The notes under the pieces are model-generated. The model saw nothing but the letters and a program-made list of their open reading frames with translations, made no database searches and had not been told where the DNA came from. This document shows positions 58,612 to 63,611 of a stretch of DNA of 64,000 bases, piece by piece. Each line of letters opens with the position of its first letter. The first letter of the stretch is position 1. Both the position numbers and the translations under genes were made by a program. The stretch is from the human T2T-CHM13v2.0 reference genome, Homo sapiens. The DNA lies in NCBI RefSeq assembly GCF_009914755.1, contig NC_060944.1; one strand, given 5' to 3'.

Positions 58612-59001
58612 TGTACCATCTATTCTCCAGTCAGCTGTAACAGGTCTGGATTTTTAAAACTGCAGATCCAATCACTTCCCTCCCCAGGTTTTCCTTCCGT
58701 GAGCTTTTCATGGGTGCAGAGCAAAATCCAGACCCTCACCACTGCCCACAAGGTCCTGCAGGGTCTTCTCCCATCCCCATTCCCCAGCCCACCTCTCCCT
58801 AGTCCTCTGCTGAAGAAGGGAAAGTGAAGCCCTCCACGGGGCCCTCCCACCCTTTCCTCAGGAGGCTTCACACCAACTTATGTCGGACATCTTAAAACAT
58901 ACCCACATCCTTTAACAAGTTTGATTTATTCTGCTATTCAGTTTTTGAGAGGATTTTTGAAACTTAAAAAAAAGTTTTGGCATTATAAATAACTCATTTC
59001 A

Positions 59002-59137
59002 GCCAGGCATGGTGGCTCATGCCTGTAATCCCAGCACTTTGGGAGACCAAGCCAGGCGGATCACCTGAGGTCAGGAGTTCAAGACCAGCCTGCCCAACAT
59101 GGTGAAACCCCGTCTCTATTAAAAATACAAAAATTAG
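59002..59137 (+). mobile_element. Alu left arm (right arm displaced to 62792-62974)
   Basis: Outer TSD aaataac(t/c)catttca at 58987-59001 and 62975-62989. Confidence 0.9.
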
Positions 59138-59560
59138 GGCAACCCACTTGGGACCCCTTCCACACCATGGAAGCTTTGTTCTTTTGCTCTTTGCAATAAA
59201 TCTTGCTACTGCTCGCTCTTTGGGTCCACACTGCCTTTATGAGCTGTAACACTCACCGCCAAGGTCTGCAGCTTCACTTTTGAAGCCAGTGAGACCACGA
59301 ACCCACTGGGAGGAACGAAGAACTCCAGATGCGCCGCCTTAAGAGCTGTAACACTCACCGTGAAGGTCTGCAGCTTCACTCCTGCAGCCAGCGAGACGAG
59401 ACCATGAACCCACCAGAAGGAAGAAACTCCGAACACATCCGACCATCAGAAAGAACAAACTCTGGACACGCCGCCTTTAAGAAGTGTAACACTCACTGTG
59501 AGGGTCCGCGGCTTCATTCTTGAAGTCAGTGAGACCAAGAACCCACCAATTCCAGACACA
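59138..59560 (+). mobile_element. LTR12 (ERV9) R-U5 portion, U3 absent
   Basis: ggaagctttgttctt...aataaatcttgctactgctc, repeated gctgtaacactcaccg..gaaggtctgcagcttcact units, ends ...gacaca. Confidence 0.9.
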
Positions 59561-59620
59561 AGATCACGACATTGCACTCTAGCCTGGGTGACAGAGTGAG
59601 ACTCCATCTCAAAAAAAAAA
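59561..59620 (+). mobile_element. Alu 3' tail fragment
   Basis: agatcacgacattgcactctagcctgggtgacagagtgagactccatctc polyA. Confidence 0.85.
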
Positions 59621-59661
59621 GAACAAGGCTAATCTTTCCTGAACATTAAAACTTTGCACCC

Positions 59662-61224
59662 GGTGCTCTCCCTCTCCCTCTCCCTCCCCCTCCCCCTCCC
59701 CCTCTCCCCACGGTCTCCCTCTCCCTCTCTTTCCAGGGTCTCCCTCTGATGCCGAGCCGAAGCTGGACTGTACTGCTGCCATCTCGGCTCACTGCAGCCT
59801 CCCTGCCTGATTCTCCTGCCTCAGCCCGCCCAGTGCCTGCTGTTGCAGGCGCGCGCCGCCACGCCTGACTGGTTTTCGTACTTTTTTGGTGCAGACGGGG
59901 TTTCGCTGTGTTGGCCGGGCTGGTCTCCAGCTCCTAACCGCGAGTGATCCGCCAGCCTCGGCCTCCCGAGGTGCCGGGATTGCAGACGGAGTCTGGTTCA
60001 CTCAGTGCTCAATGGTGCCCAGGCTGGAGTGCAGTGGCGTGATCTCGGCTTGCTACAACCTCCACCTCCCAGCCGCCTGCCTTGGCCTCCCAAAGTGCCG
60101 AGATTGCAGCCTCTGCCCAGCCGCCACCCCATCTGGGAAGTGAGGAGCGTCTCTGCCTGGCCGCCCATCGTCTGGGACGTGAGGAGCCCCTCTGCCTGGC
60201 TGCCCAGTCTGGAAAGTGAGGAGCGTCTCTGCCCGGCCGCCATCCCATCTGGGAAGTGAAGAGCACCTCTTCCCGGCCGCCATCCCATCTAGGAAGTGAG
60301 GAGCGTCTCTGCCCGGCGCCCATCGTCTGAGATGTGGGGAGCGCCTCTGCCCCGCCGCCCCGTCTGGGATGTGAGGAGCGCCTCTGCCCGGCCGAGACCC
60401 CGTCTGGGAGGTGAGGAGCGTCTCTGCCCGGCCGCCCCGTCTGAGAAGTGAGGAGACCCTCCGCGCGGCAGCCACCCCGTCTGGGAAGTGAGGAGCGTCT
60501 CCGCCCGGCAGCCACCCTGTCCGGGAGGGAGATGGGGGTCAGCCCCCGCCAGGCCAGCTGCCCCGTCCGGGAGGGAGGTGGGGGGGTCAGCCCCCTGCCC
60601 GGCCAGCCGCCCCGTCCGGGAGGTGAGGGGCGCCTCTGCCCAGCCGCCCCTACTGGGAGGTGAGGAGCCCCTCTGCCCGGCCACCACCCCGTCTGGGAGG
60701 TGTACCCAACAGCTCATTGAGAACGGGCCAGGATGACAATGGCGGTTTTGTGGAATAGAGAGGGGGGGAAAGGTGGGAAAAAGATTGAGAAATCGGATGG
60801 TTGCCGTGTCTGTGTAGAAAGAAGTAGACATGGGAGACTTTTCATTTAGTTCTGTACTAGGAAAAATTCTTCTGCCTTGGGAAACTGTTGATCTGTGACC
60901 TTACCCCCAACCCTGTGCTCTCTGAAACATGTGCTGTGTCCACTCAGGGTTAAATGGATTAAGGGCGGTGCAAGATGTGCTTTGTTAAACAGATGCTTGA
61001 AGGCAGCATGCTCGTTAAGAGTCATCACCACTCCCTAATCTCAAGTACCCAGGGACACAAACACTGCGGAAGGCCGCAGGGTCCTCTGCCTAGGAAAACC
61101 AGAGACCTTTGTTCACTTGTTTATCTGCTGACCTTCCCTCCACTATTGTCCTGTGACCCTGCCAAATCCCCCTCTGCGAGAAACACCCAAGAATGATCAA
61201 TAAAAAAACAAAACAAAACAAAAA
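59662..61224 (+). mobile_element. Full-length SVA retrotransposon
   Basis: (CCCTCT)n head, antisense Alu-like region, GC-rich VNTR, SINE-R, AATAAA at 61199, polyA; perfect 14-bp TSD aaaactttgcaccc at 59648-59661 and 61225-61238. Confidence 0.97.
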
Positions 61225-61238
61225 AAAACTTTGCACCC

Positions 61239-62783
61239 ATATCAGTTTCTCTTCATGACCTAAAGGAAAAGATCTGAAATCAATTCAAATTATTAAGTGA
61301 ATTGAATTTCTTTGGAAACAAACACCACTTAGAAAATCTTATTCTCATCTACTTTTCCAAATAACAAGATATATAATGTACTATTTCTGCTTAGAACTTA
61401 TAAAAGTCTTTTATGTAATTTTTTTCACCAGGAACCCTAAAGCTCTCATAGCTCTCGGGAGCATCAGAAGTAGCAAAACCAATCAAATTTCAAATACCTG
61501 GTATCCTCTATCAATTTTTAGAGGCTTGATAATGGTAGCTTAGGAATTTTTGGATAAATAGAGCAGATAGTGAATTCTTGGAAATCCATAGGAAACAAAA
61601 TGACTATTTATAGAACCAAATAAAAGCCTTCCGTTAGAAACTAAAAAAAATCAATGGTGTTTTATGTGTTTATATAAGCAAAATGCAAAGGAGAAAAAAC
61701 AGCAAATAAATGAAAATTAGAAGAAAAAAAAACAAACAGGAAACCACTCCCCAATTTTTCTCTTACTTGGTTTACCCAGGAGGCTATAGTATTGCCCAGA
61801 GCCTACAAAAACAAATGATGAATATTTTGTTCCTGGTACACAATTTAATGTCTTTAAGTCCACCAATACCATTATGTATTTTTTGCAATTGAGAAATTCA
61901 CTTTAGGTACATGACCAGTAAGTACTTTAGTGCTGAAACTGTCTATGCAGAATAGCAAAAATAGTGTGAAGCAATGCAAGCATATATGTGAAATTTGGCT
62001 CCATGCTAACTAAATCTGGCTTCATGCTTAACTTTATTAAAAAAGAATGGCCAAACTGCCAATGTATTTCTTTACAATATTTTTTATTTTACTTTCTTCA
62101 AGATTAAGAACTTTATGAACAGTGTTAATTCGCTGAATTTCTCCAATTTTCTATCAGCTTTTAAAGAATATTTTACTATCTAAGCTTTTTCAACTTTTTT
62201 TTTTTTTTTTAAATAACCAGTCATTTTACTTTAGGACAAAAATTTACCTTACAATTTACCATCCTTTCTCATATGAAAGTATTCTCTTTTCTTTATACCC
62301 TTCCTTACCAAAAACACATCTTCATATCTGTAACTTTCTTTTTTTTCTTTTTTTTTTTGAGAGGGAGTCTCACTCTGTAGCCCAGGCTGGAGTGCAGTGG
62401 CGCCATCTCGGCTCACTGCAAGCTCCGCCTCCCGGGTTCACGCTGTTCTCCTGCCTCAGCCTCCCGAGTAGCTGAGACTCCAGGCACCCGCCACCATGCC
62501 TGGCTAATTTTTTGTATGTTTAGTACAGACGGGGTTTCACCGTGTTAACCAGGATGGTCTTGATCTCCTGACCTTGTGATCCGCCCCCCTCGGCCTCCCA
62601 AAGTGCTGGGATTACAGGCGTGAGCCACCACGCCCAGCCCATATCTGTAACTTTCTTCACATCACTCTCCCCTACTTACTGATTCCTTACTACTTTGTTT
62701 CATGAATAACCTTTTCAAGTCCATATTTTGAATTAAACTTTAGATAACTTCTGAATTAAATAAAAATTATTATTTTTCTCACT
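61239..62783. mobile_element. AT-rich sequence resembling ERV1/MER4-group internal region (family uncertain)
   Basis: Composition and motifs recalled from antisense ERV-int relics; no intact ORF. Confidence 0.4.
62341..62640 (-). mobile_element. AluY
   Basis: Diagnostic cactgcaagctccgcctcccgggttcacg; perfect 17-bp TSD atatctgtaactttctt at 62324-62340 and 62641-62657. Confidence 0.93.
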
Positions 62784-62791
62784 AAAAAAAA

Positions 62792-62974
62792 AAAAATACA
62801 AAAATTAGCCAGGTATGGTGGCATGCCCCTGTAATCCCAGCTACTTGGGAGGCTGAGGCAGGAGAATTGCTTAAACCCAGGAGGCAAAGGTTGCAGTGAG
62901 CCAAGATCATGCCACTCTACTCCAGCCTGGGTGACAGTATGAGACACCATCTCAAAATAAATAAATAAAAAATA
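62792..62974 (+). mobile_element. Alu right arm (completes 59002-59137)
   Basis: aaaaatacaaaaattagccagg...ccatctc (AAAT)n, then the outer TSD. Confidence 0.9.
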
Positions 62975-63611
62975 AAATAACCCATTTCATTTTCCACTGG
63001 GTCTGATTTCTCAAAAGTCAAATGACATGCTCATGTGTTCTTGTAAAGTGAAAAAATGGAAGGATTTGGGAGACCAGGGAAGGAGGAAGAGACTGGATTG
63101 GGCCAGATGAGAATTTGGGCAGAGCAGCATGGGGCTGAGTGCCCAGATGACGGTGGATGGTCAGGAAGGCTTGGAATTCTGGAGAAGAGGAGTGAAGCAG
63201 GATGTGATTAGTGCTGCTGACTCAGGAGAGGGGCCTCAACACCCAGCCTGATGGTCCAGGGCTCAGACCACACTGATCCATTCTTGCTCATGACAGTGGA
63301 TCAAGCCATCACTGCACCCTGCATTGACAATGACAAAACCAAGTGAACGGTTGTTTTAAATTTAAACACAAGGAAAGCCTCACTGAGCATCTCCACCAGT
63401 TTGGGATGATACAGAGGTTTCACTGATGATCATAGATGCTCCTTAAAATGTCAGGATTCCAGCTGTCTGTGTGTAAGTGCTGTGGGCTCCTGGAAGCCCT
63501 GTGTGGCAGCAGATTTCATGGCAGAATATGCCATGTATCTCCGCTAATGTCTTAATTCAGTTGTAGATGACAAATAACAAACTCGAGCAGCCTCCTAAAG
63601 ACTTCACTTAG

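What the first reader, a model, noticed from the sequence alone, without database searches (positions are those of the whole stretch)
58987..62989. Retrocopy of an LTR12-initiated non-coding transcript splitting an Alu, with nested SVA and AluY
Seen: one Alu with outer TSD aaataac(t/c)catttca (58987, 62975) is split at its linker. The 17-mer aaaaatacaaaaattag is duplicated at 59121-59137 and 62792-62808 after a TT/AAAA site. The 3.65-kb insert starts abruptly in LTR12 at ggcaaccc with no U3, and ends with AATAAA (62759) about 20 nt before a poly(A) (62784). Recalled: ERV9/LTR12 transcription starts just upstream of this ggcaaccc motif. Removing the SVA and AluY with their TSDs leaves ~1.75 kb: LTR12 R-U5, an Alu tail and ERV-like sequence. 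Inference: a near full-length, L1-mobilised processed copy of an LTR12-promoted lncRNA, and so a fossil record of germline LTR12 read-through transcription. Repeat annotation would show only unrelated fragments.
Basis: partly seen in the sequence, partly recalled or inferred. Interest (0 to 1): 0.8.

Follow-up and report, generated by a model that had tools for sequence, protein, structure and literature searches.

The report
L1-made copy of LTR12-started RNA
A 2-kb RNA that started at the promoter of an old retroviral LTR on chromosome 3 was copied back into an Alu on chromosome 20 by the L1 machinery, an ordinary mechanism that here records exactly where that promoter fired in the ancestral germline.

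Summary
Window 59138-62791 is an L1-type retrocopy. It has an exact 17-bp TSD, a TTTTT/AA nick site in an Alu linker, and a short poly(A) 19 nt after AATAAA.

I found the parent at chr3:151860908-151862970 of the same assembly, collinear and 98.3% identical. It is a complete solo LTR12 with U3. The copy's first base lies inside the published LTR12C initiator, 29 nt after the AATAAAA box and 69% along the LTR. The parent runs on without poly(A).

Correction: the AluY is also in the parent, so it was inherited and not nested. Only the SVA is absent from the parent. The transcript was therefore 2,069 nt and unspliced, not about 1.75 kb.

A genome-wide check strengthens the start-site claim. Thirteen of 304 LTR12 R-start cores abut foreign DNA exactly there, each preceded by an extra G, against 0 of 844 for a control position.

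All other such cases are about 80-135-nt R-region mini-retrocopies, and about 29 are independent. This locus is the only long read-through example found.

It is a new member of a known kind. The R-only class may be undescribed.

The parts
58987..59001 (+). Left TSD of the host Alu (AAATAACTCATTTCA)
   Evidence: one of only 2 matches in the window at <=1 mismatch; 0 expected by chance.
59002..59137 (+). 5' part of the host Alu. It ends in the A-rich linker. Positions 59121-59137 are the left copy of the 17-bp TSD of the retrocopy.
   Evidence: aligns to Alu positions 6-136., D15. The nick site on the bottom strand reads TTTTT/AA.
59138..59214 (+). LTR12 R region (77 nt), the first bases of the retrocopy. 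The LTR's own AATAAA at 59195-59200 was read through.
   Evidence: aligns to parent 151860908-151860984. The start lies inside the initiator motif. The R 3' end is defined by the cleavage site CTTGCTGCTGCTC|A(n) seen in the R-only copies.
59215..59560 (+). LTR12 U5 with its internal repeats, ending ...GACACA.
   Evidence: D5 (3 copies of an 80-nt unit); collinear with the parent up to 151861330.
59561..59620 (+). 3' tail of the Alu that the LTR12 had split at the parent locus, copied as part of the RNA.
   Evidence: the parent has the same junction, and AGAT flanks the LTR12 on both sides as a 4-bp TSD; this junction occurs only at chr20 and chr3.
59621..59661 (+). Old interspersed repeat from the parent flank. 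Positions 59648-59661 are the left TSD of the SVA.
   Evidence: D16.
59662..61224 (+). SVA (hexamer repeat, Alu-like part, VNTR, SINE-R, A-tail). It is absent from the parent, so most likely inserted after the retrocopy.
   Evidence: VNTR of 37-40-nt units., D16 (14-bp TSD, right copy at 61225-61238); the parent is continuous across the site; 97-98% identity to many SVAs.
61239..62340 (+). Old interspersed repeat from the parent flank, AT-rich and unclassified. Positions 62323-62340 are the left TSD of the AluY.
   Evidence: 98% identity to chr3 and 73-83% to many other loci; the family runs at least 4.9 kb around the parent; no Pfam domain.
62341..62657 (-). Antisense AluY with its right TSD (62640-62657), inherited from the parent and not nested later.
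   Evidence: one continuous alignment, window 61225-62788 to chr3:151861418-151862975, runs through it., D14.
62658..62783 (+). 3' end of the copied RNA, with AATAAA at 62759-62764.
   Evidence: the parent reads ...CTCACT|AAGAACACC, with no A-run; only chr20 and chr3 match at >90%.
62784..62791 (+). Poly(A) remnant (8 A), not templated by the parent beyond 1-2 A.
62792..62808 (+). Right copy of the 17-bp TSD (Alu linker).
   Evidence: D15.
62809..62974 (+). 3' part of the host Alu with its A-rich tail.
   Evidence: aligns to Alu positions 119-299 together with the TSD.
62975..62989 (+). Right TSD of the host Alu (AAATAACCCATTTCA).

Best explanation
A solo LTR12 at chr3:151859947-151861330 lies between an HLTF exon and HPS3 and points toward HPS3.

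1. RNA polymerase II started at the LTR12's own initiator. It read through the LTR's poly(A) signal, U5, the Alu tail and 1.5 kb of flank that includes an antisense AluY.
2. The RNA was cleaved and polyadenylated 19 nt after a flank AATAAA. This gave an unspliced RNA of 2,069 nt.
3. In a germline or early-embryo cell, L1 ORF2p nicked TTTTT/AA in the linker of an Alu 2.5 kb downstream of BPIFB4. It reverse-transcribed the whole RNA to its capped end.
4. The result is a promoter-less copy flanked by a 16-17-bp duplication.
5. An SVA landed in the copy later.

The copy itself is most likely inert.

Shown: the anatomy, the parent locus, the collinearity, and the recurrence of this 5' end across the genome. 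Inferred: the cell type, the age (about 5-15 Myr), and the order of the SVA event.
For: Parent and collinearity:
- Window 59138-59661 matches chr3:151860908-151861431, and window 61225-62788 matches chr3:151861418-151862975.
- A global alignment has 2,060 aligned columns, 35 substitutions (17 at CpG) and 5 indels, giving 98.30% identity.
- Only these two loci exceed 90% identity for three diagnostic queries.

Retrocopy hallmarks:
- Exact 17-bp TSD.
- The two Alu halves overlap by exactly the TSD.
- The poly(A) is absent from the parent.
- U3 is absent from the copy and present in the parent.

Start site:
- The parent has AATAAAAG at 151860879 and GCTAGCAGCGGC at 151860899-910. The copy starts at G151860908.
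- That is 29 nt after the box, inside the 5-nt initiator, and 961 of 1,384 nt (69%) along the LTR.
- This matches passages of PMC4665003, PMC7641743 and PMC11853044.

Recurrence of the 5' end:
- I searched the R-start core with 4 upstream bases forced to differ from U3. This gave 15 matches against 0 for the reversed control.
- 13 of the 15 have foreign flanks, and all 13 have G just before GGCAACCC.
- The same design 21 nt further into R gave 0 matches.
- The denominators are 304 and 844 core matches.

Timing:
- Substitutions split 16 in the copy, 13 in the parent and 6 unresolved, as expected for two lineages diverging since one event.
Against: - No outgroup genome could be examined, so the empty site (an intact Alu) is inferred and not seen.
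- No expression data for the parent were available.
- In today's parent both arms of the published inverted repeat GCCANNNNTGGC are changed (GCTA....CGGC). The present allele may therefore be a poor promoter.
- The extra 5' G cannot be told apart from the last base of the TSD at this locus.
- The A-tail is short (8 A).
- The SVA's private divergence is 7 of 697 sites. That is about the same as the copy lineage's own divergence (16-19 of 1,806). The SVA is therefore not demonstrably younger than the copy.
Confidence: 0.9

Rival explanations
1. The SVA was co-mobilised. In this view an SVA first inserted at the chr3 locus on an allele now lost or absent from this assembly. It was transcribed from the LTR12 promoter 524 nt upstream. 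The whole unit then moved to chr20 as an SVA with a 5' and a 3' transduction.
For: - SVA RNAs are efficient L1 substrates and depend on outside promoters (recalled; PMC3287187 seen only in search listings).
- Among the 13 LTR12-start retrocopies found, the only long one is also the one that holds an SVA.
- The SVA's private divergence (7 of 697) is no lower than that of the copy lineage.
Against: - The chr3 site is empty, with a single copy of the 14-mer.
- No other locus carries the same 5' or 3' flank.
- It needs a transient, never-fixed source allele to have produced a fixed offspring. By my own rough population estimate (inference, no tool) this is far less likely than a later SVA hit.
Confidence: 0.05
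2. A 5'-truncated retrocopy. In this view a longer transcript began upstream of the LTR12, for example from a neighbouring gene's promoter. L1 reverse transcription happened to stop at the LTR12 start site.
For: 5' truncation is common in L1-mediated insertions (established knowledge). No expression data for the parent were available.
Against: - The end falls within the 5-nt initiator and 29 nt after the TATA-like box.
- The same end, with the same preceding G, recurs in 12 other independent insertions.
- A control position gives 0 of 844.
- A chance stop within 5 nt along more than 2 kb has odds of roughly 1 in 400 (inference).
Confidence: 0.03
3. A DNA-level event. In this view a segmental duplication, or two unrelated Alus with native sequence between them and a local loss of U3, produced the structure.
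For: None found.
Against: - The homology with chr3 ends exactly at a poly(A) site with an untemplated A-run, and at the transcription start.
- The two Alu pieces are complementary, with a 17-bp overlap, and share one outer TSD.
Confidence: 0.01

Closest known systems
HERV-W processed pseudogenes (L1-mobilised retroviral RNAs)
   Same: The 5' LTR is reduced to R-U5. There is a poly(A) tail, a TT/AAAA site and a TSD (PMC5537654, abstract and passages).
   Different: There is no proviral body and no U3-R at the 3' end. The RNA came from a solo LTR12 and ran into ordinary flanking DNA. That review calls HERV-W the sole HERV group mobilised by L1.
[quoted passage not shown]
   Same: The logic and the hallmarks are the same. 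The retrocopy ends mark the ends of the parental RNA (PMC7692494, abstract).
   Different: The parent here is an LTR-driven, unspliced intergenic RNA and not a microRNA host gene.
LTR12C-initiated transcripts defined by CAGE
   Same: The start is inside GTGGC, about 30 nt after AATAAAA and at about 70% of the LTR (PMC4665003, PMC7641743, PMC11853044; passages).
   Different: Those are RNA data from tumours, treated cells or infected T cells. This is a DNA record of a heritable, ancestral event.
SVA 5'/3' transduction
   Same: An SVA flanked on both sides by sequence from another locus, the whole within one TSD.
   Different: The source locus in this assembly has no SVA, and the SVA has its own TSD whose single copy sits in the parent.

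Membership tests
L1-mediated processed retrocopy | Target-site duplication flanking the insert | tested here: met
   17 of 17 identical (D15). The register is confirmed by the Alu halves overlapping at positions 119-136.
L1-mediated processed retrocopy | L1 endonuclease-type target (TTTT/AA on the nicked strand) | tested here: met
   The top strand reads ...CTATT|AAAAATAC, so the bottom strand reads TTTTT/AA.
L1-mediated processed retrocopy | 3' poly(A) not encoded at the source, following a poly(A) signal | tested here: met
   AATAAA at 62759-62764 and an A-run at 62784-62791. The parent continues AAGAACACC.
L1-mediated processed retrocopy | A source locus elsewhere that carries the promoter which the copy lacks | tested here: met
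   chr3 parent with a full U3.
L1-mediated processed retrocopy | Introns removed relative to the source | tested here: not met
   The copy is collinear with the parent over all 2,069 nt, so the RNA was unspliced. This removes one usual line of proof, but it does not contradict an RNA intermediate.
LTR12 (ERV9 LTR) promoter-initiated transcript | 5' end within the GTGGC / GCCAGCAGTGGC initiator, about 30 nt after AATAAAA, about 70% along the LTR | tested here: met
   The first base is G151860908, inside GCGGC (906-910). The box is at 151860879. The position is 961 of 1,384 nt. The motifs are taken from passages of three papers.
LTR12 (ERV9 LTR) promoter-initiated transcript | Observed transcription from the parent LTR | not testable with these tools
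   No CAGE or RNA data were available.
HERV processed pseudogene (HERV-W type) | R-U5 ... internal proviral sequence ... U3-R-poly(A) | tested here: not met
   R-U5 is followed by an Alu tail and flank. There is no second LTR12 within the 18 kb fetched around the parent.
SVA with transductions | Source locus holding the SVA | tested here: not met
   The parent is continuous across the SVA site. A lost allele cannot be excluded.

The most novel reading that the evidence does not exclude
LTR12 solo LTRs were a recurrent source of L1-mobilised RNAs in the hominoid germline.

- Besides this one 2-kb read-through copy, the genome holds about 29 independent mini-retrocopies of about 80-135 nt.
- Most are R-only. 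They run from the LTR12 start site, usually with an extra 5' G, to the LTR's own cleavage site, followed by poly(A) and flanked by TSDs.
- They would be a DNA record that solo LTR12s made tiny capped, polyadenylated R RNAs.
- They would also show that the LTR12 poly(A) signal works, which a 2025 review says has not been reported for any LTR12.
- I found no description of this class in seven literature searches.
Probability: 0.45. Interest if true: 0.6.

Novelty: new member of a known kind. Interest (0 to 1): 0.42.

Why it matters
The locus itself is inert. Its value is as a record. It fixes to the base where an LTR12 promoter fired and where its RNA ended, in cells that contributed to the germline roughly 5-15 million years ago. 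It also shows that this LTR's own poly(A) signal could be bypassed.

Together with the R-only copies, it gives a sequence-only way to read ancestral germline activity of LTR promoters and poly(A) sites. It also warns that repeat annotation splits such copies into unrelated fragments.

Tried and rejected
- It belongs to an interspersed family with copies at 73-83% identity.
- The family is collinear over at least 4.9 kb around the parent.
- Pfam found nothing in 31 ORFs of the parent region.
- Among 92 ORFs of six family copies there was one below-cut-off, surely spurious hit.
- Nothing was found in 24 whole frames read with X at stops.
- I leave the family unclassified.

Other steps that led nowhere:
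- The 1992 paper that mapped the ERV9 start site (PMC334116) is not held, so the exact base mapped there was not seen.
- I tried to date the SVA against the copy by private substitutions. The rates came out equal, which does not settle whether the SVA was nested or co-mobilised.

Rejected readings: an orphan L1 transduction and a DNA-level duplication. Both homology ends are RNA ends.
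Full report
**1. The observation**

The sequence is as described.

- One Alu is flanked by AAATAAC(T/C)CATTTCA at 58987-59001 and 62975-62989. These are the only two matches in the window at one mismatch or fewer, with none expected by chance.
- The Alu is interrupted in its A-rich linker.
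- The 17-mer AAAAATACAAAAATTAG stands at 59121-59137 and 62792-62808 (D15).
- This 17-mer is Alu-linker sequence and occurs in four other Alus of the window (6 matches in all). Its repetition is therefore not informative on its own.
- What shows it is a TSD is register. Against a reference Alu the left piece covers positions 6-136 and the right piece 119-299. The two halves make one Alu, overlapping by exactly this stretch.
- The top strand reads CTATT|AAAAATAC, so the nicked bottom strand reads TTTTT/AA. This is the L1 endonuclease preference.
- The insert begins GGCAACCC at 59138.
- AATAAA lies at 62759-62764, and eight A's at 62784-62791 precede the right TSD.
- The SVA (59662-61224) has an exact 14-bp TSD, and the antisense AluY (62341-62639) an exact 18-bp TSD (D16 and D14; for the VNTR).

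**2. The parent locus**

The window's own assembly could be searched.

- The 1.08-kb stretch between the SVA and the AluY matched chr3:151861438-151862510 at 98%. It matched many other places at 73-83%.
- With 18 kb of chr3 fetched, window 59138-59661 aligns to chr3:151860908-151861431. Window 61225-62788 aligns to chr3:151861418-151862975 in one piece.
- First consequence: the two alignments overlap by the 14-mer that flanks the SVA. The chr3 site is therefore an empty SVA site.
- Second consequence: the second alignment runs straight through the AluY. The AluY with its TSD was already at the source and was copied with it.
- The mobilised RNA was therefore 2,069 nt and not about 1.75 kb. It was unspliced, because it is collinear with the source throughout.
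- A global alignment gives 2,060 aligned columns, 35 substitutions (17 at CpG sites) and 5 indels, or 98.30% identity.
- The LTR12/Alu-tail junction query and the 3'-end query each found only chr20 and chr3 above 90% identity. No sibling copies exist in this assembly.

**3. Anatomy of the parent**

- A complete LTR12 (TG...CA, 1,384 bp, chr3:151859947-151861330) sits inside an Alu and is flanked by AGAT on both sides.
- No second LTR12 lies within the 18 kb fetched, so it is a solo LTR.
- U3 is present, with its CCAAT-bearing repeats.
- AATAAAAG starts at 151860879.
- GCTAGCAGCGGC occupies 151860899-910.
- The copy's first base is G151860908. That is 29 nt after the box, with C at position -1, and 961 of 1,384 nt (69%) along the LTR.
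- At the 3' end the parent reads AATAAA (151862946-951) ...CTCACT and then AAGAACACCTCTTTTTGG. It has no A-run.
- Both ends of the homology are therefore RNA ends: a transcription start and a cleavage site.
- By Pfam searches of the assembly, a HIRAN-domain exon lies on the minus strand at 151826578-766. That this exon belongs to HLTF is recalled.
- The first HPS3_N exon lies on the plus strand at 151880467-682.
- The LTR12 is thus intergenic and points toward HPS3. Its RNA ended 17.5 kb short of that exon.

**4. Is the 5' end the start site?**

Print:
- CAGE places LTR12C starts within a 5-nt GTGGC, at about 70% of the element (PMC4665003, passages).
- This lies about 30 nt after an AATAAAA box (PMC7641743, passages).
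- It lies within GCCAGCAGTGGC (PMC11853044, passages).
- The parent fits on all three counts, with two transitions in the 12-mer.

Recurrence test:
- I searched the assembly for the first 26 nt of R preceded by four bases that must each differ from the U3 sequence. This gave 15 matches, against 0 for the reversed control.
- Two of the 15 (L019, L023) are ordinary LTR12s with a small deletion in the initiator.
- The other 13, this window among them, have unrelated, mostly AT-rich DNA upstream.
- In 13 of those 13 the base before GGCAACCC is G. The published motif has T there and the parent has C.
- At several loci this G cannot belong to the TSD (L031, L034, L035, L041, L048, L054).
- An untemplated 5' G is what I recall being reported for full-length L1-mediated insertions, and it is ascribed to the cap. 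I did not look this up.
- The same design placed 21 nt further into R gave 0 matches.
- The bare cores occur 304 times (R start) and 844 times (inner position). The comparison is therefore 13 of 304 against 0 of 844.
- I conclude that the chr20 copy is 5'-complete.
- At this locus the extra G coincides with the last base of the TSD. The TSD is therefore 16 or 17 bp.

**5. What the other cases are**

- All 12 other foreign-flank cases are short.
- They consist of R alone, or R plus 7-35 nt of U5. Poly(A) follows in 11 cases, and a (CA)n run in one (L018).
- TSDs are visible, for example 15 bp in L012 and 14 bp in L018.
- A second search, for CAATAAATCTTG followed within 12 nt by nine A's, gave 62 raw matches at 31 distinct sites, with 0 for the control.
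- I looked at all 31 sites. Two are unrelated (L049, L066). The other 29 are LTR12 R ends with poly(A).
- In 29 of those 29 the LTR12 homology begins at the same start, about 62 nt upstream, with foreign DNA before it. None has U3.
- Three sets share identical flanks, so they are later duplications of one insertion: a chr1 pair, a chr9 pair, and a chr3/11/15/19 subtelomeric set of four.
- One locus is a tandem dimer within one TSD (L042/L043).
- Collapsing these leaves 23 independent insertions.
- With six more from the first search that the second pattern could not catch (L011, L012, L013, L015, L018, L024), there are about 29 independent short copies and one long one, this locus.
- The dominant cleavage site, CTTGCTGCTGCTC|A, sets R at 77 nt. 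In the window that is 59138-59214.
- These counts are lower bounds, because both patterns demand exact matches.

**6. Mechanism and age**

The steps are as given under Best explanation.

- Polarising the copy-versus-parent differences with other family members gives 16 changes in the copy, 13 in the parent and 6 unresolved, over 1,806 bp.
- That is about 0.9-1.0% per lineage.
- With recalled primate substitution rates this means roughly 5-15 Myr. This is an inference.
- The copy must be younger than the AluY at the source.
- The event must have happened in germline or early-embryo cells, because it is inherited.

**7. The SVA**

- Its SINE-R part is 97-98% identical to many SVAs.
- It has 7 private substitutions in 697 comparable sites. 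This rate equals that of the copy lineage.
- The SVA is therefore not clearly younger than the copy.
- This leaves open a rival reading. An SVA could have sat at chr3 on a lost allele and been driven by the LTR12, with the whole unit moving as an SVA with two transductions.
- I rate this rival at about 5%.
- Three points count against it. The source site is empty. No relative shares the flanks. A transient allele would have had to leave a fixed offspring.
- Only ape or pangenome data can close the question.

**8. The rest of the insert**

- The non-LTR part belongs to an old interspersed family that is collinear over at least 4.9 kb around the parent.
- No Pfam domain was found in 31 and 92 ORFs, nor in 24 read-through frames. 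One sub-threshold hit is surely spurious.
- 'ERV-like' is therefore unverified.
- The poly(A) site used lies inside this family, not at its end, because other copies continue past it.

**9. Comparison and novelty**

- The mechanism is the textbook L1-mediated retrocopy.
- The nearest named relatives are the HERV-W processed pseudogenes. These have an R-U5 start, poly(A), a TT/AAAA site and a TSD (PMC5537654). This copy has no proviral body or 3' U3-R, so it is not one of them.
- Using retrocopies of non-coding RNAs to read how the parent was transcribed has been done for microRNA host genes (PMC7692494, abstract).
- None of my seven literature searches listed a paper whose title or abstract describes LTR12-initiated retrocopies or R-only copies. 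I opened only a few of the listed papers. In the search no listed paper held LTR12 together with either of the other two terms.
- The 2025 LTR12 review states that its authors know of no LTR12 acting as a poly(A) signal.
- Most subscription papers are not in the library, so absence from print is not established.

**10. Verdict**

The finding is real and correctly read, apart from the AluY. As a single locus it is a new member of a known kind and is probably without function. Its interest lies in the base-exact record of ancestral LTR12 promoter use, and in the R-only class that the control searches turned up.

Noticed in passing
Assembly-wide; e.g. L034 (chr2:185235934-185236019), L031 (chr1:152758925), L035 (chr3:82629833), L055 (chr9:14151376): About 29 independent mini-retrocopies of the LTR12 R region alone, or of R plus up to 35 nt of U5. 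They run from the start site, usually with an extra G and sometimes AG, to the LTR's own cleavage site. Poly(A) and TSDs follow. None of the 29 R-end/poly(A) sites examined has U3 upstream.
   Followed up: partly
L042/L043, chr4:70877693-70877885: Two R-poly(A) units in tandem inside a single TSD (R-pA-R-pA).
   Followed up: no
L041, L059, L063, L065 (chr3:201063289, chr11:38083, chr15:99713802, chr19:39035); also L026/L030 (chr1:12.45/12.73 Mb) and L021/L056 (chr9:77.4/42.5 Mb): The same R-only insertion with identical flanks at several chromosome ends or distant sites. These are later segmental or subtelomeric duplications of one event.
   Followed up: partly
L011 (chr1:169053095-169053125 and about 100 nt downstream) and L018 (chr4:139172143-139172173 and about 135 nt downstream): Two odd members. 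L011 has the first 58 nt of R joined to 29 nt of unrelated sequence before the poly(A). L018 has R plus about 35 nt of U5 and ends in a (CA)n run instead of poly(A).
   Followed up: no
window 59662-59667: The SVA begins GGTGCT before the CCCTCT hexamer run. This could be extra 5' G's or a very short 5' transduction.
   Followed up: no
chr3:151857420-151864855 (L009/L010) and window 59621-59661, 61239-62340, 62658-62783: An AT-rich interspersed repeat family at least 4.9 kb long, with hundreds of candidate copies at 73-83% identity. No Pfam-recognisable coding remnant was found in any frame, and its class was not determined.
   Followed up: partly
chr3:151859947-151861330 (L009): The parent solo LTR12 lies 17.5 kb upstream of the first HPS3_N exon and points toward it. 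Whether it ever serves as an alternative HPS3 promoter was not examined.
   Followed up: no
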